A stretch of 64,000 nt of DNA from an uncultured Actinomycetota bacterium (GCA_963815905.1 CAWFIO010000005.1:14949-78948); one strand, 5' to 3'; shown: positions 47,125 to 58,709, counted from the stretch's first letter. The notes: a model not told the origin generated them from the letters alone. A program made the numbers and translations.

Positions 47125-47670
47125 ATGGGACCGAGGGGACACCGCGGCTTTGGCCGCCCGGGCGGTTGGCAGAACGTCGACGTACCGCCCGCCGATGACG
47201 CCGCCGACTGGTTCAGGGGACGGTTGCCCGGCGAATGGTTCACCGACGTCGAGGTGGTGGTCGACCGCGAGGAGATCACCGTGATCGGGTCACTGCCCGC
47301 GGCGGGCGTCGAGGGCTCCGCGGCCGCCGAGGGCCGGATCGGCCGGTTCCGGGCCGACACGCGCGAGCGCCGGATCGAGATCGCCGAAGAGGCCGAGTCC
47401 CGCTACGGCCGCAAGGTCGCCTGGGGTGCCAAGCTGGGCGACGCCGAGTCGCTGTTCACCCACATCTCGGTGCCGGTGATGACCCGGCTGCGGCAGCCCG
47501 AGCGCCGCGTGCTCGACACGCTCGTCGACGCCGGCGTCGCCCGCTCCCGCTCGGACGCCCTCGCCTGGGCGGTCCGCCTGGTCGGCGAGCACGCGGACAC
47601 CTGGCTGACCGAGCTCCGCACCGCGATGACCGAGGTCGACAAGGTCCGCGCCCAGGGCCCCGACCTCTGA
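47125..47670 (+). CDS. Hypothetical protein with possible C-terminal ribbon-helix-helix-like motif
   Basis: Clean ORF, RBS gagagg; C-terminus PVMTRLRQPERRVLDTLVDAGVARSRSDALAWAVRLV. Confidence 0.8.
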   Translation: MGPRGHRGFGRPGGWQNVDVPPADDAADWFRGRLPGEWFTDVEVVVDREEITVIGSLPAAGVEGSAAAEGRIGRFRADTRERRIEIAEEAESRYGRKVAWGAKLGDAESLFTHISVPVMTRLRQPERRVLDTLVDAGVARSRSDALAWAVRLVGEHADTWLTELRTAMTEVDKVRAQGPDL

Positions 47671-47728
47671 GCTGAGGCTGGCGGGCGCAGCCCTGGCTTC
47701 GGCTCCGGCTCCGGCTCCCCTATTCAGC

Positions 47729-47783
47729 AACTGGGGGCAGATAACAGAATTTGCGGCGATCGTGCTGTTATCTGCCCCCAGTT
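47729..47783. repeat. REP-like palindrome, copy 1
   Basis: aactgggggcagataacag, 17-nt loop, ctgttatctgcccccagtt (19-bp perfect arms). Confidence 0.92.
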
Positions 47784-47814
47784 AGTTGGGAAACCGCTGA
47801 CGCAGGTCGCCGGT

Positions 47815-48729
47815 TCAGCCGCCGGACCACCGCTGATGGACTCGCCGACGGCCGCTCAGCCCGAGCAGCGAATCATCGAGCAAAGCGTTCCACCGCCGCA
47901 GCCGACGCGGATCCCAGGTCCGACCGAGCGCCCGATCCACCGCAGCGATCAACGTGCCGCCGTCATTGCGTAACTCGACCGAGGTGTAGCCGAAGCGCAG
48001 GGCGCCCTGCTCGGCGATCATGCGTTCGCGACCCAGATCGGACCGATGGACCGCACGGTCGCGGTGGATATCGCCGTCGTACTCGTGAATCCGTGGGGTG
48101 CCCACGATGCCGAGATCGGCATGCGCCACGACCCGGCCGCCCGCATCGATGATCTCCATCTGCGGCTCGACCTGGATGTCCGCTGCCCGGTGCAGGACCC
48201 GCATGATCGATTCCCAAGGCGATCCACTTCGCTCGTCCAGCGTCGGGATGAGTTCACGCAGTCGCCTCACCCCACGACGTCGGTGCGTCGCCGTCTCCTC
48301 GAGTTCGTCGAGCGTCAGTTGCTTCAGACGGAGGGCCGAGTCGCCGAGCACGACCAGGTCGAGCAGCCCGAGATCCCGGCAGGCGGCAAGCAGAGTTTCG
48401 GCGGCAGTGGTCACCGGCAAGCCCATGACCGACGTCGCCGGCACCGAGGACCGGTGCCTCGATAGGACCACCCCGGGCCGTCGCGGGTAGGACCCCGTCT
48501 CTGGCGCGGCGATGAAGATCGGATGGTGCCTGCGCGAGGGCATCCACCATCCGCAGAGCTCCGCTGCGGTCAGGTGTGTAAATGCCGCACCCGCCGGCAA
48601 CAACAGCCGCCAGGCATCCAGGTCGTGCGCCAGGCTTTCTTGTGGAAGTGACGAGCGGTAGAGCCCGTACGTCAGACGCCGCCATTGCGCACCCCTGCGG
48701 TGACCGCGCACCGGGTTACTTGTTCTCAT
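47815..48729 (-). CDS. AbiEi-like N-terminal domain + DUF559/Vsr-like PD-(D/E)xK nuclease-domain protein
   Basis: FTHLTAAELCGW and GLPVTTAAETLL (AbiEi-like); SGSPWES.MR, VEPQ, HADL, HEYDGDIH, DLGRER (DUF559-like). Start chosen at MRTSNP; uncertain. Confidence 0.8.
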   Translation of the reverse strand: MRTSNPVRGHRRGAQWRRLTYGLYRSSLPQESLAHDLDAWRLLLPAGAAFTHLTAAELCGWWMPSRRHHPIFIAAPETGSYPRRPGVVLSRHRSSVPATSVMGLPVTTAAETLLAACRDLGLLDLVVLGDSALRLKQLTLDELEETATHRRRGVRRLRELIPTLDERSGSPWESIMRVLHRAADIQVEPQMEIIDAGGRVVAHADLGIVGTPRIHEYDGDIHRDRAVHRSDLGRERMIAEQGALRFGYTSVELRNDGGTLIAAVDRALGRTWDPRRLRRWNALLDDSLLGLSGRRRVHQRWSGG

Positions 48730-48779
48730 ACAGAAAACATGCTGACGTCGCTCGACTTCGTGCCGCCCTCGTCGGAATC

Positions 48780-48818
48780 TGTGGATAACGGACTTAGCGG
48801 TCGGCGCGCTGTGGACAA
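48780..48818 (-). promoter_or_regulatory. Two DnaA-box-like 9-mers 30 bp apart
   Basis: On the minus strand TTATCCACA (48780-48788) and TTGTCCACA (48810-48818), upstream of the nuclease gene. Confidence 0.55.
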
Positions 48819-48835
48819 CGGCGCCCCCTGCCCCC

Positions 48836-48896
48836 ACTATCTGGGGGCAGATAGCGCAAAACCTGATGGTTTCGACGCAATCTGCCCCCAGATAGT
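48836..48896. repeat. REP-like palindrome, copy 2
   Basis: actatctgggggcagat ... atctgcccccagatagt (17-bp perfect arms, imperfect inner extension). Confidence 0.92.
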
Positions 48897-48940
48897 CGAA
48901 TGGGGAGGCGGCGTGTTGCCGCTGGCCAGGACTTGTTCGG

Positions 48941-50617
48941 TTACGCGGTGCGCTGGGCCCGGTAGTAGCGGATCAGGTTCTGGGTGGAGGGGTCCTGGTC
49001 GGCGAGGGCGGCCTCGTCGCCGCCGACGGCCGGGGTGACCTTGAGGGCGAGCTGCTTGCCGAGCTCGACGCCCCACTGGTCGAAGCTGTCGATGCCCCAG
49101 ACGACGCCCTGGGTGAAGGTGATGTGCTCGTAGAGCGCGATCAGCTGACCGACCACAGCCGGGGTCAGGCTCGGGGCCATGATCGAGGTGGTCGGGCGGT
49201 TCCCGCTGAACACCCGGGCGGGGACGATGGCCTCGTCGGTTCCCTCCGCGCGTACCTCGTCGGCCGTCTTGCCAAAGGCCAGCGCGGCGGTTTGGGCGAA
49301 GAAGTTGGCCAGGAAGAGCTCGTGGACGTCGGCACCGCCGTCGTTCAGCGCGTGGGCCGGGTTGGCCACCGCGATGAAGTCCGCCGGGATCAGCTGGGTG
49401 CCCTGGTGGATCAGCTGGTAGAACGCGTGCTGGCCGTTGGTCCCGGGCTCGCCCCAGAACACCTCGCCGGTCGCTGTCGTGACCGCCTCTCCGTCGTAGC
49501 GGACGCCCTTGCCGTTCGACTCCATGGTCAGCTGCTGCAGGTACGCGGCGAAGCGATGCAAGTACTGCGCGTACGGAAGCACGGCATGGCTCGCCGACCC
49601 GAAGAAGTTGACGTACCAGATGTTGATCAGACCCATCAGCACCGGCACATTGGACTCGAAGGGGGTCTCGCTGAAGTGGGTGTCGATGGTGTGGAAGCCG
49701 TCGAGGAACGCGGTGAAGTTCTCCGGCCCGATGGCAACGGCGACCGAGGTGCCGATGGCCGAGTCGACCGAGTAGCGACCCCCGACCCAGTCCCAGAAGC
49801 CGAAGGCGTTGGCGGGGTCGATCCCGAAAGCGGCGACCTTGTCGAGAGCGGTCGAGACGGCGACGAAGTGCTTGGCCACCGCGCTCGAGCCGGCCTCGTC
49901 CCCGCCCTCGATCGCGCCGGAGGCCCGCAGCCCGTCGAGCAACCAGGCCCGGGCCAACCGCGCGTTGGTCAGGGTCTCAAGGGTGGTGAAGGTCTTCGAG
50001 GCCACGATGAACAACGTGGTCTCGGGGTCGAGATCGCGGGTCGTCTCGGCCACGTCAGTCGGGTCGATGTTGGAAACGAACCGGCAGCTCAGACCGGGCT
50101 GCACGTACGGTTGGAGGGCCTCGTAGACCATCACCGGACCCAGGTCCGAGCCGCCGATGCCGATGTTCACCACGGTCTCGATCCGCTTACCGGTGACTCC
50201 GACCCACTCACCGTTGCGCACCTGGTCGGCGAACGCGTACACCTTGTCCAAGACCTCGTGAACCTGCGGCACCACATCGACCCCGTCGACGGTCAAGGAC
50301 GCGTCGCGAGGCAGCCGCAGGGCGGTGTGCAGCACGGCCCGATCCTCGGTGACGTTGATGTGTTCGCCGGAGAACATCGCATCGCGACGCTCGGCCAGAC
50401 CCACCTGCTCGGCCAGGGCGAGCAGCGCAGCGATGACCTCGTCATCGATCAGGTTCTTGGACAGGTCCACGAACAGGTCGCCCGCCGTGTGGCTGAAGTG
50501 CTCAGCCCGGGCCGGATTCGCGTCGAACCAACCCCGGAGGTCGGGTTCGAGCGCAGCCTTCAGACGGGTCAGGTCGGCCCAGGCCGCGGTCGTGGTCGGG
50601 TCCACCGGTGCACTCAT
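48941..50617 (-). CDS. pgi: Glucose-6-phosphate isomerase
   Basis: [61 protein letters not shown]. Confidence 0.98.
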
Positions 50618-50887
50618 CGCATTCCTCTTTCTCGTCGACCCTCGGTCGTCATCCGGCAGCCTACTGAGAGGGGACCTGCGACGGCGACGACGCCCGAGGT
50701 ACTCAGCGAAACCCCATGGTCGTCAACCTCGCCGTTTGCTGACCGGCCTTGGCCTGGCGGGGTCGCCGCCGCGCGAACCGGCTGGCGCCAACCGGAACGA
50801 GCCCATCCCGGTGGCGCCGTCTGAGTCGAGTAGCGCAGCTTCTTCCCGGTCGAGGTCGAACACCTCATCGCGCCCTGTCCTCGAGCA

Positions 50888-50946
50888 CTAACTGGGGGCA
50901 GATAGCACTGCCGGAGACCCGTCTGCCGCTATCTGCCCCCAGATAG
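50888..50946. repeat. REP-like palindrome, copy 3 (between divergent genes)
   Basis: ctaactgggggcagatagc ... gctatctgcccccagatag (15-bp perfect core arms). Confidence 0.92.
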
Positions 50947-50967
50947 CGAAGGGGGGAGGCCGCTAGC

Positions 50968-52497
50968 GTGGCCCGCATGGACCTACGTCTGGCCCGGTCG
51001 CGACCGGAGTCGGAGCCGCCGTACGCCTCGGGTGAATCGGAGTTCCGCACCGACCTGGAGCGCATCCGCTTCGCCACCTCGTTCTCGCGGCTCGCTGAGG
51101 TCACCCAGGTCGTCACCGCCGGCGCGACCGGCGGGGTCGTGCACAACCGGCTCACCCACACGATCAAGGTGACCGCGGTCGCTCGGGCCATCGCGGTCCG
51201 ACTGCTCCGCACCGAGAGTCGCGAATTGCTTCGCGAGCTCGGCGGGCTCGATCATGTGGTCGTGCAGGCCGCGGCCTGCGCGCACGACCTCGGACATCCA
51301 CCGTTCGGCCACCTCGGCGAGCGCGTGCTCGATCGGCTGGCCCGGGACCGCTTCGGGATGGCCGACGGTTTCGAGGGCAACGCGCAGACGTTCCGACTGC
51401 TGACCGAGCTCGAGGTCCACGGACCCGGCGACACGGGACTCAACCTGACCTCGGCCGTACGCGCCGCGGTGCTGAAGTACCCGTGGGCCCGGCACCACCT
51501 CCCTGACCCCCACCCGACCGACTGGGACATCCCGCCGCGCGGGGCCGGCCACGGCGGCGGCGGGGGTGGGGCGGCCAAGTTCTCGTGCTACCTGATCGAC
51601 GCTCCGGCCATGCAGGACGCGTTGGCCGCTTTCCCCGATCTCCGCGCCGGCCGCCAGACGCTCGAGTGCTCGGTGATGGATCTGGCCGACGACATCGCCT
51701 ACTCGCTGCACGACGTCGAGGATTTCCATCGCTCCGGAGTGCTGCAGTTCTCCCCGGTGTCGGGTGAGTTCCGGTCATGGGAATCCAACCGCACCCGATA
51801 CGCCGCCCTACCCGAGCTCGAGGTGGTCCGGGCCGGGCGGCAACCCGGAGCCGGACTCGAACGACTCCGGCGCTATCTGCGCACCCGCGACGCCTGGATC
51901 TTCGACGAGGACAGTTTCGCGGCCGCCGTCGCCACCGTCGGCGACGAGTTCGTCGACGGGGTCCTCGCGGTCCCGCACGACGGGTCGATGCAGTCCGACC
52001 GGGCGATCTCCGGCTTCACCTCGCGCTGGATCGATCACCTGATCACCTCGGTGTTCCCAGATCCGGAACCGCCGGTCCGCTCGGGCTACGTCCGGATGAG
52101 CAACCAGGCCTGGCACGAGGTGTCGGTGCTCAAGTTCGTCAACTCCTACTTCATCCTCGAGCGCCCGGACCTGGCCATGTTCCAGCGCGGTCAGGAGAAG
52201 ACGATCGAGCTGCTGATCGCCGCCTTCGACGACTGGCTCTCCGACCGTTACGACACCAATCGCGCGCCGCGTCGACTGGTCGACCTGGTCAACGCGGCCC
52301 AGCACGGCTACGACAGGATCGCCCGCGACCACCCCGAATGGCTCAGCCCCGATCTCAACGACGCCGAACTGGCCCGAATGGGGCGCGGCCGCGGCATCAT
52401 CGACTTCGTCAGCAGCCTGACCGATGCCCAGGCCGTCGCGTACGCGGCTCGGCTCGGCGGAGCGACCGGGCTGCTCTGGGGCTCTGGCGGTCTGTGA
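50968..52497 (+). CDS. Deoxyguanosinetriphosphate triphosphohydrolase (dGTPase)-family HD protein
   Basis: HNRLTHTIKV, AHDLGHPPFGHLGE, FEGNAQTFR, LKYPW, DLADDIAYSLHDVED. Confidence 0.9.
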   Translation: MARMDLRLARSRPESEPPYASGESEFRTDLERIRFATSFSRLAEVTQVVTAGATGGVVHNRLTHTIKVTAVARAIAVRLLRTESRELLRELGGLDHVVVQAAACAHDLGHPPFGHLGERVLDRLARDRFGMADGFEGNAQTFRLLTELEVHGPGDTGLNLTSAVRAAVLKYPWARHHLPDPHPTDWDIPPRGAGHGGGGGGAAKFSCYLIDAPAMQDALAAFPDLRAGRQTLECSVMDLADDIAYSLHDVEDFHRSGVLQFSPVSGEFRSWESNRTRYAALPELEVVRAGRQPGAGLERLRRYLRTRDAWIFDEDSFAAAVATVGDEFVDGVLAVPHDGSMQSDRAISGFTSRWIDHLITSVFPDPEPPVRSGYVRMSNQAWHEVSVLKFVNSYFILERPDLAMFQRGQEKTIELLIAAFDDWLSDRYDTNRAPRRLVDLVNAAQHGYDRIARDHPEWLSPDLNDAELARMGRGRGIIDFVSSLTDAQAVAYAARLGGATGLLWGSGGL

Positions 52498-52518
52498 CGG
52501 GTCGGGCAGACTCGTCGG

Positions 52519-53259
52519 GTGGACCTGATCGGCGAGGTATGGCGACGCGCCACTACGGAGCAACCCGCACCCCCGCCCGAGATCATCGCTGTCACCGCGC
52601 TGATCGCCGCGGCGCTGGTCCTGCTGCGGGTCACCTGGCCGTGGACCCGGGCGCTGATCACCATCGCCCACGAGGGCGGCCACGCGTTCGCCGCGCTGCT
52701 CACCGGTCGTCGGCTGCGCGGCATCCGGCTGCACACCGACACCTCGGGGCTGACCATCTCCGCGGGCAAGCCGCGCGGATCGGGCATGGTGGTGATGCTG
52801 GCGGCGGGCTACGTGGCTCCGGCGGCGGTCGGCCTGGCTGCGGTCGTCATGCTCCTCGCCGGTCACGCCCTCGGGCTGCTCTGGGTGATGCTGATCGTGC
52901 TGACGCTGATGCTGCTGAAGATCCGCAACGGCTACGGCCTGCTCGTCGTGCTGGCCTGTGGCGGCGGTCTGCTCGCCGTCAGTTGGTATGCGGGCCCGGG
53001 TGCGCAGACCGCATTGGCGTACCTGCTGACCTGGATCCAGCTGATCGCCGCACCCAAGCCGGTGCTCGAGCTGATCGCTCAACGCCGCCGGCACCCGACA
53101 CCCCAGTCCGACGTCGATCAGCTCGGGCGGCTGACCCGGGTGCCGGCCGGCCTCTGGCTCGCGTTCTTCCTGTTGCTGAACGGCGCCGGCCTGTTGGTCG
53201 GCGCCGCCCTGCTCCTACCGGCGTTGGCCGACATCGCCCGACAGCTCGCCGTCGGCTGA
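52519..53259 (+). CDS. M50 (M50B-like) membrane zinc metallopeptidase
   Basis: HEGGH zinc motif, AGYVAP, SDVDQL, many transmembrane segments. Confidence 0.88.
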   Translation: MDLIGEVWRRATTEQPAPPPEIIAVTALIAAALVLLRVTWPWTRALITIAHEGGHAFAALLTGRRLRGIRLHTDTSGLTISAGKPRGSGMVVMLAAGYVAPAAVGLAAVVMLLAGHALGLLWVMLIVLTLMLLKIRNGYGLLVVLACGGGLLAVSWYAGPGAQTALAYLLTWIQLIAAPKPVLELIAQRRRHPTPQSDVDQLGRLTRVPAGLWLAFFLLLNGAGLLVGAALLLPALADIARQLAVG

Positions 53260-53274
53260 AGTCGGGAAACACGA

Positions 53275-53302
53275 ACGGCCCCACCCCGAGGGGGGAGGCC
53301 GT
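53275..53302. terminator. Imperfect GC hairpin between convergent genes
   Basis: acggcc...ggccgt with inner cccc/gggg pairing. Confidence 0.4.
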
Positions 53303-53324
53303 CCGACGATGCGCTGTGGGGGCC

Positions 53325-53468
53325 CTACTTCATCGGGCTGCGCTGAGCGACGATCATCAGCTCATCGCGCATGGCCGGGGTGAAGGCGTTGCCGATCGCG
53401 CGGTTGAGTTCGCGGCGCGTACGGGCAAACTCACGGTGGCTCTGGATGGCCTTCGCGAGGCGAGACAT
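53325..53468 (-). CDS. 47-aa small protein (below the ORF-track cutoff)
   Basis: MSRLAKAIQSHREFARTRRELNRAIGNAFTPAMRDELMIVAQRSPMK*, RBS ggaagg, promoter-like motif upstream. Confidence 0.7.
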   Translation of the reverse strand: MSRLAKAIQSHREFARTRRELNRAIGNAFTPAMRDELMIVAQRSPMK

Positions 53469-53555
53469 GGTTCTGCTTCCTTCCTGGGGTGACATCGAGG
53501 TCTCTTGACCGTGATGTTTTCGAGATCGAACTCTTCGACTTCGAACGTTACTCTA

Positions 53556-53582
53556 CAACAGGGTTCGGCGCAGCGGTATTCC
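53556..53582 (-). promoter_or_regulatory. ECF sigma (SigR/SigH/SigE-type) promoter GGAAT-N18-GTTG
   Basis: Minus strand ggaat accgctgcgccgaaccct gttg, 87 bp upstream of the small ORF. Confidence 0.55.
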
Positions 53583-53729
53583 TGGAGGGGTGATCTCGAT
53601 AACAGGTGGTTCGAGCCGCACGAAGGCAGCGGAGAGTCCGGGATCCGCCGGATGGCGTGCTCTCGGCGAAAGCGATGGTGACCAGCGGAAAGGTCGATCA
53701 GCCGCTACGACAGGGGCCGACGAATTCGC

Positions 53730-54188
53730 TCAGGCGGCCTGACCGTAGCGCGGATCGCTGACCTCGAGGCCGGCGCGCTCGAGCTCGGCCTCGACCCGGA
53801 CGCGCTCGATGTCGCGTTCGATGCCCACGGAGTCCCGGGCCAGCTCATGCTCGATCTCGAGCATCGCGCAGGCCTGCGTCAACAGCCGGTCGTAGGCCAA
53901 CCGGTTCCCGACCTGGTGTGCGGCGGAACGATTCGAGTCGGTGCGAACGAGGCCACGCAGGCGACGGAGATCGGCGGCGAGCTGCTCGATCGGGATACCG
54001 GATTGCTTCCGCAGGGCGCGCACGCCCCGGCGATGCTCAGCGGTGGTGTCGCGACGTGATCGCCAGTGTTGCAAGCTCTCGTCCCAGCGGCCGGCCATCA
54101 GGTCGTAGCCCACCACGCAGAGGACCGGGACGAGCACCATGATGGCCACGGCGATCCCGCCGAGCAACACCTGGTACGGGTCCGCCAT
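53730..54188 (-). CDS. Hypothetical membrane-anchored protein
   Basis: N-terminal transmembrane helix followed by a helical charged domain (PIEQLAADLRRL...AYDRLL...AC). Confidence 0.7.
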   Translation of the reverse strand: MADPYQVLLGGIAVAIMVLVPVLCVVGYDLMAGRWDESLQHWRSRRDTTAEHRRGVRALRKQSGIPIEQLAADLRRLRGLVRTDSNRSAAHQVGNRLAYDRLLTQACAMLEIEHELARDSVGIERDIERVRVEAELERAGLEVSDPRYGQAA

Positions 54189-54237
54189 CTACAAACCATA
54201 AGTCGGCCCAGACCCGGAGACAAGGCGGACAGAAATT

Positions 54238-55137
54238 CTAGCCGGTGCCGCTGTTCCCGTACACGGAGACATGCACGTGGTCGTAGTGATTTGCCGTGGC
54301 CGAACCGCGGTCCGACATCGACCGCCAGCCCTCGGAGCCGCGCTGGACGGTCCAGATCTTTTGCGAGTAGATGACCTCGCTGACGCCGAGACGCTTCGCG
54401 TTGGCCTGAACCCAGCGCGCCATCTGCCAACCAACGGTCGAATCCGAGATCATCGCATCGACCGCTCGGCCGGAGCCGTGGAAGTCGTTGCTGGGCCGGC
54501 GGCCGCCGAACGAGGCCACCTGGGGATAGCGGGCACAAAGGGCGCGATGCACCCGGACGGCGTCCTCGGTCAGGCCCGACTCCATCGCGGAGCCCGAGCT
54601 GCAGGCGGCCGTCGACAACCCGCCGCTGGTGGAGGTCGGCTTCTTCTTGGTGAGGAACTTGTCGGTCACCCAGCGGCTCTTGTCGCGATACTCGACCAGT
54701 CGGTAGCCCTTGGTCACCGTGTCGGTGACGGTCAGCTTGGTGCCGGCGTCCACCACGGTGAGGACCTTCGCCTTGGCCTCGGCCCCGGCCCGGATGTTCA
54801 ACGACTCGGTCGCGTACCGCCTGCCGATCACCTTCGGCTCGGGAGCGGTCTTGGCGGTGACGGCCCCTGAGACGCTCCGGTCGAGTGCCGGACGCAGATC
54901 GCTACGGGTGGGGCGCTGCGCGCGTTCGCTGAAGGCGGGGGTGGCCGCCGGTGCGGCGGAAACCGCGGTCGCCACGATCGGAGCCGGGTAGGCGACCTGC
55001 GTGTCCTGGGCCCCGGCCCAGACTCCCACGGTGATGGCGGTGCCGGCGAGACCGGCCAGGGCGACCGGTGCGGCCAGCTTCGTCGCACGCATCGCGAGCG
55101 TCGGACGGGCGGCCCGGCGCGGGCGGTGACGGGTCAA
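54238..55137 (-). CDS. Secreted SH3b-domain protein with C-terminal M15-like/peptidoglycan-hydrolase-type domain
   Basis: TTG start with RBS gagg; SH3b ATESLNIRAG...RWV; DFHGSGRAVD and NHYDHVHVS metal-binding pattern. Confidence 0.75.
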   Translation of the reverse strand: MTRHRPRRAARPTLAMRATKLAAPVALAGLAGTAITVGVWAGAQDTQVAYPAPIVATAVSAAPAATPAFSERAQRPTRSDLRPALDRSVSGAVTAKTAPEPKVIGRRYATESLNIRAGAEAKAKVLTVVDAGTKLTVTDTVTKGYRLVEYRDKSRWVTDKFLTKKKPTSTSGGLSTAACSSGSAMESGLTEDAVRVHRALCARYPQVASFGGRRPSNDFHGSGRAVDAMISDSTVGWQMARWVQANAKRLGVSEVIYSQKIWTVQRGSEGWRSMSDRGSATANHYDHVHVSVYGNSGTG

Positions 55138-55360
55138 GACTTCCTCATTCCCCGAGATCGTCCGGCGGCGCTCGCCGAGACCAAAGCGTTATTTTTCGAA
55201 GAGTTTAGGCAGAGCCCGAACGTTTTGCCCAACCGTGACCGGTCTGAATCGGCCCAAACAGGGCCTTTCGGGTACCTCGGTCGACGTGAGTCTGGCCACA
55301 TCTCTGTCGGTGGACGGGGTTAGCGTGAGCGCAACGAAGCCATCAGGAGAAGGGGTGGGC

Positions 55361-56716
55361 ATGACCGCGTACGACGCGATCGTGATCGGAGCAGGACAAG
55401 CGGGGCCCGGAGTCGCTGCGGCGCTGGCGGAGCAGGGTAAGCAGGTCGCGCTGATCGAGATGGACCGGGCGGGAGGCACCTGCCTGAACCACGGCTGTAA
55501 GCCGACCAAGACGCTACGAGCCACCGCCAGCGTGGCCCATCAGGCCCGCCGGGCGGCCGAGTACGGCGTACACGTGGGGCCGGTCAGCGTCGACTTCGGT
55601 GTCGCCATCACACGGGTCCGGCGCATCATCGGCGCGATGCAGGAGTCGATCGACGGTTGGCTCGACGGTCTCGACGGCGTCGACTACATCCACGGTCGGG
55701 CCACCCTGCGCAGCGACCCCGGCGGGCAGCGGCACGTGGTCCGGGTCGAACGAGACGGAGCTGACCGCTCCGCAGGTCTACCTGAACGTCGGGGGCCGGG
55801 CCTCGCGCCCGCCCATCCCCGGACTGGACGACGTCGAGTGGATGACCGAGGTCGAACTGCTCGCGCTCGACGAACTGCCCGAGCACCTCATCGTGGTCGG
55901 GGGCGGCTACATCGGATGCGAGTTCGGCCAGATGTTCGCCCGATTCGGTTCGCGGGTCACGATGGTCGCCGGAGGCAAGCTGGCCGGCCGCGAGGACCCG
56001 GACATCTCCGAACTGGTGGCCACGATGCTGACCGAGGACGGCGTGCGGATCCTCGACGGACGACCCTCGCAGGTCCGGCGAGCCGACGGCGGTGACATCG
56101 AGGTCGAGGTGGACGGCGAGACCGATCACCGGGACCCACCTGCTGCTGTCGACCGGGCGTACGTCCAACTCCGACCTGCTCGGCGACCACGGCGATCGAG
56201 ACCGACGAGCGCGGCTTCTTCGTCGTCGGACCGCGGTTCGAGACCTCGGTGCCCGGGGTCTGGGCGCTCGGCGACGTCAACGGGCGCGGCGCCTTCACCC
56301 ACACCGCGTACCAGGACTCGCAGATCCTGCTCGCTCCCCCGCGTACGGTCGAGGGCCGGGTCACCACGTACGCGATGTTCACCGATCCGCCGCTCGGCCG
56401 CGTCGGCATGACTACGCAGGAGGCCCGCGACTCCGGACGCCGGGTGCTCAAGGCCGAGGTGCCGATGAGCTCGGTCAGCCGGGCGGTGATGGAGAGCGAG
56501 ACCACCGGACTGATGCGGATCCTGGTCGATGCCGACACCGAGGAGTTCCTCGGCGCCACCATCCTCGGCCTGCATGCCGATGACCTGATCCAGGTCATCG
56601 GCACCGCGCTGCAGGCCGGCGTCCGCTACCCCACGGTGCGTGACGCGCTGCCCATCCACCCGACGATGGCGGAGTACATCCCCTCGATCCTCGGCTCATT
56701 GACCCCGCTCGACTAA
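55361..56716 (+). pseudogene. Class I pyridine nucleotide-disulfide oxidoreductase (mercuric-reductase/dihydrolipoamide-dehydrogenase-like) broken by three +1 frameshifts (about 55747, 56121, 56195); possibly intact in vivo
   Basis: VIGAGQAG, GGTCLNHGCKPTK, VVGGGYIGCE, THLLLSTGR, ALGDVNG and IHPTMAE are spread over four successive frames. Confidence 0.8.
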
Positions 56717-57048
56717 CGCGGATCGGCGAGGATGCCGATCAGATTGCCGTCCGGATCGACCAGCACCGCGATCCGGCGGCCGCCTCCGACGTCGTGGACG
56801 GGTTCCTGCTCGGTGGCGCCGGCAGCCAGCAGAGCGTCACGGGTCGCCTCGATGTCATCGACCTCCCAGTAGGCCACCGTGCCGGACTGATTGCTCTGGG
56901 GAGCCAGCCCGACGTGCAGGCCGTCGAGGTCGTAACCGACGTAATACGGCGCGTCCATGCTCGGTTCGACCCCCAGGACGGTGGCGTACACCGCCTTGGC
57001 CGCGGTCAGATCGGCCACTGGTACGACGATGGTCTTGAGTCCGGACAT
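56713..57048 (-). CDS. VOC/glyoxalase-family protein
   Basis: MSGLKTIVVPVADL, YWEVDDI, DVGGGRRIA, DPDGNLIGI. Confidence 0.88.
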   Translation of the reverse strand: MSGLKTIVVPVADLTAAKAVYATVLGVEPSMDAPYYVGYDLDGLHVGLAPQSNQSGTVAYWEVDDIEATRDALLAAGATEQEPVHDVGGGRRIAVLVDPDGNLIGILADPR

Positions 57049-57124
57049 GTCAGGGTTCCTCTCGGTCACGAAGATCGCCTCTCGATCGTCACACCCCTGA
57101 CGAACGAAAGAGGAAAGGTGTGAC

Positions 57125-57979
57125 ATGCACGAGGATGAGTGGTTGGCCGAGCGCTTCGAGGAACAGCGGAACCACCTGTCGGCGGTCGCGCTTCGGATGC
57201 TGGGATCGCCCGCGGAGGCCGACGACGCGGTCCAGGAGGCATGGCTGCGGCTCAGCCGATCCGACGTCAGCGCGGTCGACAATCTCAGCGGGTGGCTGAC
57301 CACCGTGGTGTCGCGGGTCTGCCTGGACATGCTGCGGACCCGCCGCCGGCGGGGCGAGACCGAGCTCGGGGACCAGATCAGCGAGCCCGTCATCGCTGGG
57401 CCCGAGCACGAGGCGCTACTCGCCGATGCCGTCGGCCCGGCTCTGCAACGGGTCCTCGACAGCCTGGCCCCGGCTGAGCGCATCGCCTTCGTGCTGCACG
57501 ACCTGTTCGCGGTGCCGTTCGACGAGATCGCCGAGATCTTGGGGCGGACGCCGGCCGCTACGCGCCAGCTGGCCAGTCGGGGGCGGCGTCGGATCCAGGG
57601 CGGGGACGCCCCCGGCGATCCCGATCGTGCCCGTCGAGCCGAGATCGTCGCGGCCTTCCTCGACGCCTCCCGCAACGGCAACTTCGCCGGGTTGCTGGCC
57701 ATCCTCCATCCGGGCGTACTCGTCCGGGCCGATGCCACCGCGACGGCGATGGGAGCCGAAGCCGAGATCCGCGGATCCGAGCTGGTGGCCGCGGCGTACA
57801 ACGGCCGGGCCCAGGCGTTGCGCCGCGTGCTCATCAACGGCGAGCCCGGGGCGGTCTGGCAGCTGCGAGGCGAGATCAAGGTGATGTTCGCGTTCACGGT
57901 CCTCGACGGCCTGATCGCCACCGTCGACCTGATCTCCGACCCGGACGCGTTGGCCGCCGCCGAGGTGGACTACCTCTAG
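57125..57979 (+). CDS. ECF sigma-70 factor with C-terminal SnoaL-like domain (ECF41/SigJ-like)
   Basis: EADDAVQEAWLR, WLTTVVSRVCLDMLR, ERIAFVLHDLF, RQLASRGRR; SnoaL-like extension. Confidence 0.9.
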   Translation: MHEDEWLAERFEEQRNHLSAVALRMLGSPAEADDAVQEAWLRLSRSDVSAVDNLSGWLTTVVSRVCLDMLRTRRRRGETELGDQISEPVIAGPEHEALLADAVGPALQRVLDSLAPAERIAFVLHDLFAVPFDEIAEILGRTPAATRQLASRGRRRIQGGDAPGDPDRARRAEIVAAFLDASRNGNFAGLLAILHPGVLVRADATATAMGAEAEIRGSELVAAAYNGRAQALRRVLINGEPGAVWQLRGEIKVMFAFTVLDGLIATVDLISDPDALAAAEVDYL

Positions 57980-57996
57980 CACCGCGCATCCCCTCT

Positions 57997-58073
57997 CCCG
58001 TCGAACTAACTGGGGGCAGATAGCAGTGTTTCGGCCGATGGTTGCGTTATCTGCCCCCAGTTAGTTCGACGGG
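57997..58073. repeat. REP-like palindrome, copy 4 (longest)
   Basis: cccgtcgaactaactgggggcagata / tatctgcccccagttagttcgacggg (26-bp perfect arms). Confidence 0.93.
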
Positions 58074-58123
58074 CGGGGGCGACCGGCAGAGGGCGAAGAG
58101 AGGCGGCGCCCCGGGTCAGGCGC

Positions 58124-58709
58124 TCACGTGCTGAGGCGCGGGGCCCGCGGGCTGCGTTTGTAGTCGGAGACGAAGCGGCTGCCGGCCTCGTGGAAGCGCC
58201 ACGGGCGGTCGGCCTCGACCGAGACCCCGACGCGCGGGCCGACCACGATGGCCGCCGGGCGGTGGGCCGGGCTCGAGCCGCAGCGCACCGCCGGACAGCA
58301 GGTCGGCCCCCTTGTGCTCGGCGTTCAGCCCCAGGGCCTGAGCGAGCCGGCCCGGGCCGCGGGCCAGGTCGCGATCGGTCGAGCGGCCGCGCCGGCTGCG
58401 GGCGAGTTCGAGACCCGCGATCACCTCGCCGGCCCGGAGCAGGACTCCCGATGCGGTCCCGTCGGGTCCGCAGACCACGTTGGCCGCCCAGTGCATGCCG
58501 TAGCTGAAGTAGGTGTAGAGGTGGCCGGGGGGCCCGAACATCGTCTGGTTCCGCGGCGTCGGGCCGCGGAAGGCGTGCGAGGCCGGGTCGCGGGCCCCCG
58601 CGTACGCCTCGACCTCGGTCAGTCGGACAGCGATCTCGCCGTGCCACAGGATCGCACCGAGCAGGGCCGGCGCGACCAGCTCGACCGGGCCGGAGAGGTC
58701 CCAGCTCAC
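58124..58709 (-). CDS. mpg: 3-methyladenine DNA glycosylase (MPG/AAG family); +1 frameshift near 58258
   Basis: [38 protein letters not shown]; the +1 frame gives the expected tail GPRVGVS...PWRF...FVS. Confidence 0.85.

What the first reader, a model, noticed from the sequence alone, without database searches (positions are those of the whole stretch)
47729..58073. Dispersed palindrome family with conserved arms and unrelated loops (4 copies in 10 kb)
Seen: eight arms share CTGGGGGCAGAT, usually extended outward by CTA(A/T) and often by TCGAA and a CCYCCC-like run; loops of about 17-27 nt differ in every copy. Copies sit between convergent genes (1 and 4), tandem genes (2) and divergent genes (3). 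The divergent copy, 21 bp before the dGTPase start, cannot be an ordinary terminator, and none has a U-tract. No copy was noticed in the first 47 kb, so they cluster near the nuclease gene, consistent with local spread. Constant arms with variable inserts could also form a structured RNA with a variable segment (speculative).
Basis: partly seen in the sequence, partly recalled or inferred. Interest (0 to 1): 0.7.

Follow-up and report, generated by a model that had tools for sequence, protein, structure and literature searches.

The report
Nuclease-linked REP-like palindrome family
The four hairpins belong to a family of about 54 near-identical intergenic palindromes whose likely partner is the DNA-binding nuclease gene that two of them bracket, a repeat-plus-enzyme arrangement like the REP/RAYT systems of proteobacteria but built on an unrelated enzyme.

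Summary
All four window copies have invariant 12-nt arms (CTGGGGGCAGAT) separated by exactly 27 nt. The genome (3.85 Mb, 69.5% GC, Propionibacteriaceae by the names on homologs) holds about 54 copies. All are intergenic, no decayed copies were found, and no arm occurs singly.

The centres are not unrelated. They share a degraded, oriented consensus. There is no base-pair covariation, no Rfam match, no U-tract, no target-site duplication, no parent IS and no Y1 (RAYT) transposase.

Copies 1 and 2 bracket a 304-aa gene encoding an AbiEi-like winged-helix domain fused to a Vsr/DUF559-like nuclease domain. Paralogs and orthologs of this gene in at least 10 other loci are bracketed by their own cognate fixed-length palindromes.

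The closest relative (about 35% divergence at 4-fold sites) keeps only three copies, all orthologous. Their arms are conserved while centres and flanks have drifted. Other sites in that relative are empty or carry decayed arms.

Best reading: a REP-like repeat family recognised and kept or spread by this nuclease, with hairpin effects at gene ends as a by-product. Its clustering near the nuclease holds, but only as one cluster in a genome-wide family.

The parts
47706..47806 (.). Copy 1 of the palindromic element. Core is 47731-47781 (arms 47731-47742 and 47770-47781); the perfect 19-nt stems span 47729-47783. It lies between the stop of abmR (+) and the stop of the nuclease gene (-).
   Evidence: RNA fold -48.5 kcal/mol, z -4.8. 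The orthologous copy in the closest relative G041 has 24/24 arm identity but 11/27 centre identity.
47815..48729 (-). Gene X, 304 aa: an AbiEi-like winged-helix N-terminal domain plus a Vsr/DUF559-like PD-(D/E)XK nuclease C-terminal domain. It is bracketed by copies 1 and 2 and is the proposed cognate enzyme of the repeat.
   Evidence: GC3 gene call. No Pfam or NCBIfam hit. Homologs are named DUF559 or very-short-patch-repair endonuclease by their sources. AF2 model has pLDDT 92. Foldseek hits: Rv2827c, I-Bth0305I catalytic domain, R2 restriction-like endonuclease, NGO0050. D205, E216, D218 and H222 are invariant in 52 homologs.
48816..48916 (.). Copy 2. Core is 48841-48891. It lies between the stop of pgi (-) and the start region of the nuclease gene (-).
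   Evidence: Fold -65.2 kcal/mol, z -8.5. The ortholog in G041 has arms 22/24 and centre 18/27.
50867..50967 (.). Copy 3. Core is 50892-50942. It lies in the divergent pgi / dGTPase intergenic region; its G-block (50953-50961) sits just upstream of a conserved TAGCGT box and the ATG at 50977.
   Evidence: Fold -57.1 kcal/mol. The element is absent at this site in G041, G001 and G016.
57985..58085 (.). Copy 4. Core is 58010-58060, with 32-nt arms at 57991-58079. It lies between the stop of an ECF sigma-factor gene (+) and the stop of mpg (-).
   Evidence: Fold -70.1 kcal/mol, z -9.6. This copy and the sigma gene lie in about 1.15 kb that G041 lacks.

Best explanation
The four hairpins are members of a lineage-specific, REP-like palindromic repeat family of about 54 copies. 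The unit is: C-block CCTCCCC, N5-8, cACTAA, CTGGGGGCAGAT, RRCR-N19-YGYY, ATCTGCCCCCAG, TTAGTg, N4-7, G-block GGGGAGG. The 51-nt core has a fixed length, and presence/absence differences with the closest relative are about 100-120 nt. The proposed partner is the gene bracketed by copies 1 and 2, which encodes an AbiEi-type winged-helix DNA-binding domain fused to a Vsr/DUF559-like nuclease. Proposed mechanism (inferred): a dimer of this protein reads the two roughly 20-bp arms at their fixed spacing, either on duplex DNA or on the extruded hairpin, and nicks or cuts there. This copies the unit to new intergenic sites and/or keeps the arms of existing copies identical. The centre and outer flanks are not read and drift. 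Once in place, the very stable hairpins (-48 to -70 kcal/mol) probably act incidentally at gene ends as transcription barriers or mRNA 3' stabilisers, as REPs do, and occasionally sit in promoter or SD regions (copy 3). Shown: the family and its anatomy; the bracketing of the nuclease gene; recurrence of that layout with different cognate palindromes in paralogs and other species; conservation of arms but not centres across species; presence/absence polymorphism. Inferred: that the nuclease binds or cuts the arms, and that it is responsible for spread or maintenance.
For: Family: 48 exact and about 54 total copies, with 0 hits for the reversed-pattern control. With a covariance model, all G000 loci score at least 50 bits except one copy truncated at the start of contig C18 (42-50 bits); the next genomic hit scores 24 bits, so there are no decayed copies. 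All 104 arms are in pairs; there are no solo arms and no IS-sized pairs. Spacing is fixed at 27 nt. The arms behave as half-sites rather than stems: Watson-Crick counts at variable positions 13/39, 14/38 and 16/36 match independence (25 vs 26.4, 23 vs 24.6, 18 vs 22). Outer flanks are no more complementary within a copy than between copies (5.18 vs 5.19). Link to the enzyme: copies 1 and 2 bracket gene X. The only three copies in the closest relative G041 include the two bracketing its intact ortholog. The G000 paralog at C13:44199-45020 is bracketed by a second family (AGTGTCGGATARCGAC..., 53 nt, 10 copies). The same layout, each with its own palindrome, is seen in G001 (3 copies), G017, G071 (6 copies), G101, Microlunatus ginsengisoli and other MAGs. 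Upstream and downstream flanks share an exact word of at least 15 nt in 9 of 17 loci, against 7.7% of mismatched locus pairs. The densest cluster of copies in the genome surrounds gene X (P about 0.003). Enzyme: confident model of a wHTH plus nuclease-like domain with invariant acidic and His residues. Constraint on arms: 67 of 72 arm positions are identical at the three orthologous pairs, although 4-fold sites differ by 35% and centres are 11/27, 18/27 and 15/27 identical. Turnover: six G000 copies sit where G041 is 58-120 nt shorter.
Against: No biochemical or transcript data exist, so binding or cutting of the arms by gene X is purely inferred. G041 has an intact gene X yet only three canonical copies, so the gene alone does not guarantee a large family. 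Gene X matches no Pfam or NCBIfam model, and its nuclease-fold matches are weak (Foldseek E 0.002-1). If copies spread by simple copy-and-paste after the split from G041, their centres and flanks should be more alike than observed (mean 7.5 of 19 centre positions). This is not explained. Whether the differences from G041 are insertions in G000 or deletions in G041 was not resolved with an outgroup. An earlier check of the same general claim on other DNA in this scan reported a failed pre-set test of repeat-with-gene co-occurrence.
Confidence: 0.6

Rival explanations
1. The copies are host-selected hairpins, acting as factor-independent or bidirectional terminators or as mRNA 3'-end stabilisers. 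They happen to share sequence, and their position beside the nuclease gene is incidental (its own terminator and upstream insulator).
For: The hairpins are very stable. Forty-five of 52 copies adjoin at least one gene 3' end, and convergent intergenic regions are enriched two-fold (16 of 52 vs 16.5%, P about 0.008). In convergent sites the element fills the whole 136-170 nt gap. Relatives carry other hairpins at the abmR/pgi junction.
Against: There is no T/U-run. Seven copies lie between divergent genes. Selection for pairing alone would allow compensatory changes, yet 24 arm positions are invariant in about 50 copies, and variable stem positions show no covariation. Terminator function does not explain why each nuclease paralog or ortholog carries its own palindrome on both sides.
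Confidence: 0.15
2. The copies are a regulon of operator sites. They are static binding sites for a dimeric DNA-binding protein (the winged-helix domain of gene X or another factor) that regulates or insulates neighbouring genes, with no mobility involved.
For: Arms vary independently like half-sites at a fixed centre-to-centre distance. AbiEi-type proteins are known (from my own knowledge) to bind inverted repeats for autoregulation. Copy 3 abuts a promoter-like box.
Against: Operators are normally degenerate, whereas here 2 x 12-20 bp are identical in about 50 sites with no weak sites at all. Most copies lie at gene 3' ends rather than promoters. Presence/absence differences of about 100-120 nt with the sister species, and copy numbers of 2-54 among species, indicate gain and loss as units. 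The nuclease residues are conserved.
Confidence: 0.1
3. The copies are an ordinary MITE mobilised in trans by a conventional IS transposase.
For: The family is short, intergenic, multicopy, has terminal inverted repeats and is specific to one lineage.
Against: No arm pair is spaced like an IS and there are no solo ends. The bases next to the arms are inverted rather than direct repeats, so no target-site duplication is visible. The interior is not conserved as in MITEs. There is no Y1 transposase in the genome. No match was found in plasmids or phages.
Confidence: 0.05
4. The copies encode a family of structured small RNAs with a constant scaffold and a variable, guide-like loop.
For: Constant arms, a variable insert of fixed length, and stable folds.
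Against: There is no covariation and no Rfam family at gathering score. No promoter consensus was found and element orientation is unrelated to gene direction (12 vs 15). The longest matches of the centres elsewhere in the genome are 13-18 nt, little above shuffled controls, and nothing matched in plasmids or phages.
Confidence: 0.03

Closest known systems
REP/REPIN-RAYT systems (REPtrons) of Proteobacteria (Bertels & Rainey 2011, PMC3116915; PMC3337134)
   Same: Both have short intergenic palindromes in tens of copies and a unit made of two inverted arms with a less conserved spacer. In both, a single-copy enzyme gene is bracketed by its own repeats, the repeat sequence changes with the enzyme lineage, inheritance is mostly vertical, and copy number varies between related species.
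   Different: Here the enzyme is a winged-helix + Vsr/DUF559-like PD-(D/E)XK nuclease rather than an HUH Y1 transposase, and the genome has no Y1_Tnp at all. There is no GTAG-type 5' tetranucleotide. The arms are invariant while the spacer is almost randomised at strictly fixed length. The host is an actinobacterium.
BoxC / PIT / TM-ECO intrastrand-triplex repeats (Holder et al. 2015, PMC4666352)
   Same: Both are G/C-rich, strictly intergenic repeats with CCCTC-type C-blocks and GGGAG-type G-blocks and are associated with locally variable intergenic regions. Other reports of this scan link small DUF559 genes to them (unchecked here).
   Different: The TM-ECO consensus CCCTCNCCC-N3-6-GGGNGAGGG-N3-GGGNGAGGG has 0 exact or loose matches in this genome. 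Here the C-block and G-block are about 75 nt apart, separated by the conserved palindrome, which has no counterpart in BoxC.
Subterminal hairpins of IS200/IS605 elements and their PATE derivatives
   Same: In both, an enzyme gene lies between two similar imperfect palindromes, there are no terminal inverted repeats in the usual sense and no target duplication, and non-autonomous hairpin-only derivatives exist.
   Different: Those elements use a Y1 HUH transposase acting on single-stranded DNA, and their left and right hairpins differ and carry guide sequences. None of this was found here.
Free-standing and Vsr-like homing endonucleases (e.g. I-Bth0305I, PDB 3r3p)
   Same: The catalytic fold is related. 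The gene is present or absent between conserved neighbours (abmR and pgi are adjacent in G008, G015 and G016).
   Different: Homing endonuclease genes interrupt a single long target site. They are not bracketed by two complete palindromes and do not come with dozens of solo copies.
AbiEi antitoxins / Rv2827c (PDB 1zel)
   Same: This is the best structural match over about 200 residues: an N-terminal winged helix followed by an alpha/beta C-terminal domain. From my own knowledge, AbiEi binds inverted repeats.
   Different: There is no adjacent AbiEii-type nucleotidyltransferase toxin gene, and the C-terminal domain keeps nuclease-type acidic and His residues.

Membership tests
REP/REPIN-RAYT | Many intergenic copies of a short imperfect palindrome, or an inverted doublet with a spacer | tested here: met
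   About 54 copies, all intergenic, each with two inverted arms and a 27-nt spacer.
REP/REPIN-RAYT | A RAYT gene (Y1 HUH transposase, Pfam PF01797) flanked by the repeats | tested here: not met
   PF01797 has no match in the whole genome at E <= 0.01, while the control genomes do match. The gene flanked by the repeats is an AbiEi/DUF559-like nuclease.
REP/REPIN-RAYT | A conserved GT[A/G]G tetranucleotide at the 5' end of each REP | tested here: not met
   The column profile shows cACTAA-CTGGGGGCAGAT with no GTAG or GTGG at either end of the arm.
MITE | Terminal inverted repeats matching a parent IS, plus a direct target-site duplication | tested here: not met
   There are no IS-sized arm pairs and no solo arms. 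The bases adjoining the arms are inverted, not direct, repeats.
Intrinsic (rho-independent) terminator | A G+C-rich hairpin immediately followed by a T/U-run, placed at a gene 3' end | tested here: not met
   The hairpin is present. None of the four copies is reported by the terminator scan, and the flanks are G-rich rather than T-rich. Seven of 52 copies lie between divergent genes. Termination without a U-tract could not be tested.
BoxC / PIT / TM-ECO triplex motif | CCCTCNCCC-N3-6-GGGNGAGGG-N3-GGGNGAGGG (definition from PMC4666352) | tested here: not met
   There are 0 exact and 0 loose matches in the genome. G-blocks do occur in 64 of 104 outward flanks, against 9% of background, but in a different arrangement.
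Rfam RNA families | A match at the gathering score | tested here: not met
   Only sub-threshold microRNA-model hits, which are hairpin artefacts (34 bits against a gathering score of 104).
DUF559 / Vsr-like PD-(D/E)XK nuclease (gene X) | An HMM match to the family, or the Vsr-like fold with catalytic acidic and His residues | tested here: inconclusive
   No Pfam or NCBIfam hit even at E <= 10. Database sources name homologs DUF559 or very-short-patch-repair endonuclease. Foldseek finds the I-Bth0305I catalytic domain (E 0.03, TM 0.65 on target) and NGO0050. D205, E216, D218 and H222 are invariant.

The most novel reading that the evidence does not exclude
The nuclease does not only move the element. 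It installs or repairs just the arms by nick-initiated, very short patch conversion, so that the two roughly 20-bp arms evolve in concert across about 50 loci while the centre stays local DNA. This would explain four things together: invariant arms with no decayed copies in G000; centres as diverged as neutral DNA; strict length conservation; and the site C9:261433, where the sister species has homologous sequence of equal length with the centre conserved (18/27, P about 0.004) but non-canonical arms (13/24).
Probability: 0.15. Interest if true: 0.85.

Novelty: new variant of a known kind. Interest (0 to 1): 0.62.

Why it matters
REP/RAYT is the only well-described case of a bacterial repeat population tied to a single-copy, vertically inherited enzyme. 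A second, independent system built on a PD-(D/E)XK nuclease in Actinomycetota would show that such partnerships arose more than once. It would give a function to a large set of unannotated 'DUF559/AbiEi-like' genes and would explain species-specific hairpin families that shape intergenic regions, gene ends and promoters in high-GC genomes. The fixed spacing and invariant 20-bp arms also make the hypothesis directly testable in vitro.

Tried and rejected
- Covariation as evidence for an RNA or DNA stem: none at variable positions, and outer flanks are no more complementary within a copy than between copies.
- Rfam search: no family.
- Coding potential of the centre: read by eye only. One copy has an in-frame stop and the codons would be rare for this genome, so the idea was dropped.
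- Promoter reading of the arms: no TANNNT-type hexamer is conserved, and the scan found nothing.
- Orientation of the centre: a modest oriented consensus exists (information content 16.6 vs 15.7-16.0 bits in controls). It does not correlate with gene direction (12 vs 15), GC skew or gene-strand bias.
- Centres as guides: no long matches in the genome, plasmids or phages.
- Parent IS or RAYT: none found.
- BoxC membership: rejected.
- Pattern for the G017 family: wasted, because G017 was not among the genomes drawn.
- P0111 lookup: found nothing.
- Literature searches for DUF559 together with palindromes, AbiEi or REP in Actinobacteria: found no description.
- Polarity (insertion vs deletion) of the G000/G041 differences: not resolved, because the other congeners are too diverged (70-82% identity) to align the intergenic regions.


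Full report
OBSERVATION. The 12-mer CTGGGGGCAGAT occurs eight times in the window, as four inverted pairs at 47731/47770, 48841/48880, 50892/50931 and 58010/58049. Chance expectation is 0.31. The inverted-repeat scan recovers the same four palindromes, with 19-39-nt arms. The alignment shows conserved ACTAA/ACTAT outside the core and C-rich / G-rich blocks further out. In all four copies the core arms are exactly 27 nt apart. No arm lies in the first 47 kb of the window. A fifth copy lies just past the window end, at C5:79289.

GENOME-WIDE FAMILY. The window is C5:14949-78948 of a 3.85-Mb, 23-contig, 69.5% GC assembly.
- The full pattern occurs 48 times exactly, and the reversed control occurs 0 times.
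- Allowing two mismatches per arm gives 56 pairs (a few of them chance matches), 53 with a 27-nt spacer.
- With a covariance model built from 36 copies, all G000 loci score at least 50 bits except one copy truncated at the start of contig C18 (42-50 bits). The next genomic hit scores 24 bits, so there is no tail of decayed copies.
- All arms occur in pairs; there are no solo arms and no IS-sized pairs.
- The column profile defines the unit as CCTCCCC, N5-8, cACTAA, CTGGGGGCAGAT, RRCR-N19-YGYY, ATCTGCCCCCAG, TTAGTg, N4-7, GGGGAGG. C-over-G skew on the left and G-over-C skew on the right fade over about 45 nt.
- G-blocks of the GGGGAGG type occur in 64 of 104 outward flanks, against 9% of intergenic background, usually 9-11 nt beyond the core.
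- Many flanks also carry short C-rich or G-rich tandem repeats.

IS IT A STEM OR A PAIR OF HALF-SITES? At the variable arm positions 13/39, 14/38 and 16/36 the Watson-Crick counts are what independence predicts (25 vs 26.4, 23 vs 24.6, 18 vs 22). A·C mismatches are as frequent as G·T. Left and right outer flanks are no more complementary within a copy than between copies (5.18 vs 5.19). The copies would nevertheless fold very stably as single strands (-48 to -70 kcal/mol, z -4.8 to -9.6). The sequence therefore behaves like two independently varying copies of one roughly 20-nt recognition sequence held at fixed distance. It does not behave like a stem kept by compensatory change.

THE CENTRE. 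The 19 most variable positions are more alike than shuffled controls: 119 pairs share at least 11 of 19 positions, against about 11.5 expected. After orientation they give a weak asymmetric consensus, roughly RRCRYCGAAACCGGCCGCNGRAGGCGYY, with 16.6 bits against 15.7-16.0 in controls. Orientation does not follow gene direction (12 vs 15 in tandem contexts), GC skew or gene-strand bias. The centres have no long matches elsewhere in the genome (longest 13-18 nt, little above shuffles), and the element has no match in plasmids or phages. No Rfam family fits.

CONTEXT. With a GC3-based gene call (3237 genes, 84% coverage), all 52 scored copies are intergenic: 29 tandem, 16 convergent and 7 divergent. 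The background of intergenic regions is 67%, 16.5% and 16.6% respectively. Convergent sites are enriched (P about 0.008) and divergent sites are depleted per base (P about 0.02). In convergent sites the element fills the whole 136-170-nt gap. None of the four window copies has a T-run. Copies are spaced as random placement predicts (10 with a neighbour within 10 kb, against 10.9 expected). The one exception is the 5 copies in 17 kb around gene X (P about 0.003).

THE BRACKETED GENE. Neighbours in the window are abmR (47125-47670, NF058631), pgi, a dGTPase-type HD protein, an ECF sigma factor and mpg. Copies 1 and 2 bracket a 304-aa ORF (47815-48729, minus strand).
- The ORF has no Pfam, NCBIfam or PDB sequence match.
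- It has hundreds of homologs in Propionibacteriaceae, which sources label DUF559 or very-short-patch-repair endonuclease (Microlunatus, Friedmanniella).
- An AF2 model from 52 homologs is confident (pLDDT 92, pTM 0.89).
- Foldseek ranks M. tuberculosis Rv2827c (AbiEi-like wHTH protein) first. It is followed by R2 restriction-like endonuclease domains, the Vsr-like catalytic domain of homing endonuclease I-Bth0305I, and NGO0050.
- D205, E216, D218 and H222 are invariant.

THE LAYOUT RECURS WITH DIFFERENT PALINDROMES.
- In G000 the 52%-identical paralog at C13:44199-45020 is bracketed by AGTGTCGGATRANGAC...GTCGNTATCCGACACT (53 nt). That second family has 10 copies, again with invariant arms, fixed length and variable centres. 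A more distant paralog on C21 has its own pair.
- In congeners the ortholog between abmR and pgi is bracketed by GAGTGCCGGATAGTTGC-N21-... in G001 (3 copies genome-wide, also 51 nt) and by ACTAAYTGCTGGGAGA... in G017.
- G071 has CTGAACGGGGGCAG-N17-CTGCCCCCGTTCAG in 6 copies, two of them bracketing the gene. G101 has 2 copies, both bracketing.
- Microlunatus ginsengisoli and an ENA MAG show the same layout, with C-block and G-block flanks.
- Across 17 loci, the upstream and downstream flanks share an exact word of at least 15 nt in 9, against 7.7% of mismatched locus pairs.
- Some arm cores are visibly related to ours (AACTGCGGGCAGA, GAACGGGGGCAGC).
- In G008, G015 and G016, abmR and pgi are directly adjacent (65-130 nt), so gene X plus its two palindromes is present or absent as a block.

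DISTRIBUTION AND EVOLUTION.
- The exact element is found in only one other of 185,579 species genomes, MAG OY969929.1 (G041). It is found in none of 40 relatives with up to 2 mismatches.
- G041 is syntenic, has 35% divergence at 4-fold sites, and is closer than the sampled congeners (70-82% identity).
- G041 has three copies, all orthologous to G000 copies: copy 1, copy 2 and C9:293903. Its gene X is intact.
- At these three pairs, 67 of 72 arm positions are identical, while the centres are 11/27, 18/27 and 15/27 identical and the outer flanks are barely alignable. This is direct evidence for constraint, or homogenisation, on the arms only.
- At eleven further G000 copies whose G041 site was examined, six sit where G041 is 58-120 nt shorter (C9:237293, C9:346043, C21:260451, 326914, 355926, 418339). 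Window copies 3 and 4 lie in rearranged regions that lack the element in G041. Three sites have sequence of similar length without canonical arms.
- At C9:261433 the centre is conserved (18/27, P about 0.004) while the arms are 13/24. C9:321167 is marginal (17/27, P about 0.04), and C9:276606 is not significant.
- I could not determine insertion versus deletion polarity, because no outgroup aligns in these intergenic regions.

UNEXPLAINED. If most G000 copies arose after the split from G041, plain copy-and-paste followed by neutral drift predicts more similar centres and flanks than observed. It also predicts some decayed copies, and there are none. Either the copies are old, are held by strong constraint on the arms, and were lost in G041. 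Or the process renews only the arms. The data do not decide between these.

COMPARISON WITH KNOWN SYSTEMS. The closest analogy is REP/REPIN-RAYT (PMC3116915, PMC3337134): an enzyme gene bracketed by its repeats, lineage-specific repeat sequence, and inverted doublets with a looser spacer. Membership fails on the defining enzyme, because there is no Y1_Tnp anywhere in the genome, and on the GTAG signature. MITE membership fails: there is no parent IS and no target duplication. Canonical intrinsic terminator fails on the U-tract. BoxC/TM-ECO (definition from PMC4666352) has no match, although C-blocks and G-blocks of similar composition flank the palindrome. I found no paper describing DUF559/AbiEi-like genes bracketed by cognate palindromes. 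Other reports of this scan describe the same layout in other actinobacterial genomes. They are leads, not independent evidence.

VERDICT. Best explanation (confidence about 0.6): a REP-like palindrome family whose arms are the recognition sites of the bracketed wHTH-nuclease, which spreads and/or maintains them, with hairpin effects on transcripts as a side consequence. The enzyme-repeat interaction is inferred, not shown.

Noticed in passing
window 48779-48820: Two DnaA-box-like 9-mers (CTGTGGATAACGG and CTGTGGACAACGG) lie between copy 2 and the start of the nuclease gene. Both are conserved in the sister genome G041, while the surrounding intergenic DNA has diverged.
   Followed up: partly
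window 47125-47670: The gene next to copy 1 matches NCBIfam NF058631 (ATP-binding transcription factor AbmR, 258 bits). The interval between abmR and pgi is a hot spot that ranges from 65 nt to 3.8 kb across the genus.
   Followed up: partly
window 56861-58137: About 1.15 kb, holding the ECF sigma-factor gene (57125-57979) and copy 4, is replaced by 129 nt in G041.
   Followed up: partly
window 50962-50979: The dGTPase-like gene probably starts at the ATG at 50977, which is conserved in five relatives, and not at the GTG at 50968. A conserved TAGCGT lies 7 nt upstream, which suggests a leaderless transcript.
   Followed up: partly
G000:C13:44113-45115 and nine other loci: A second palindrome family, AGTGTCGGATARCGAC-N21-GTCGYTATCCGACACT (53 nt, 10 copies), brackets a 52%-identical paralog of the nuclease gene.
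   Followed up: yes
G000:C9:321227-321260; C21:239566-239600; L015 (G004) 1200-1500: Short C-rich or G-rich tandem repeats, such as (GGGTGC)n, (GGGTGAC)n and (CAGCTCCC)n, directly adjoin many palindromes in this genome and in relatives.
   Followed up: no
G000:C17:10478 / C18:6 and C18:25371 / C19:21471: Identical copies, with identical flanks, sit at or near contig ends. This is probably one repeated region split by the assembler, so the true copy number may be 1-2 lower than counted.
   Followed up: no
G000:C8:120897/121071, C8:174304/174447, C21:604020/604119: Three pairs of copies lie 100-175 nt apart with similar or identical centres. These are local tandem duplications of the element.
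   Followed up: no
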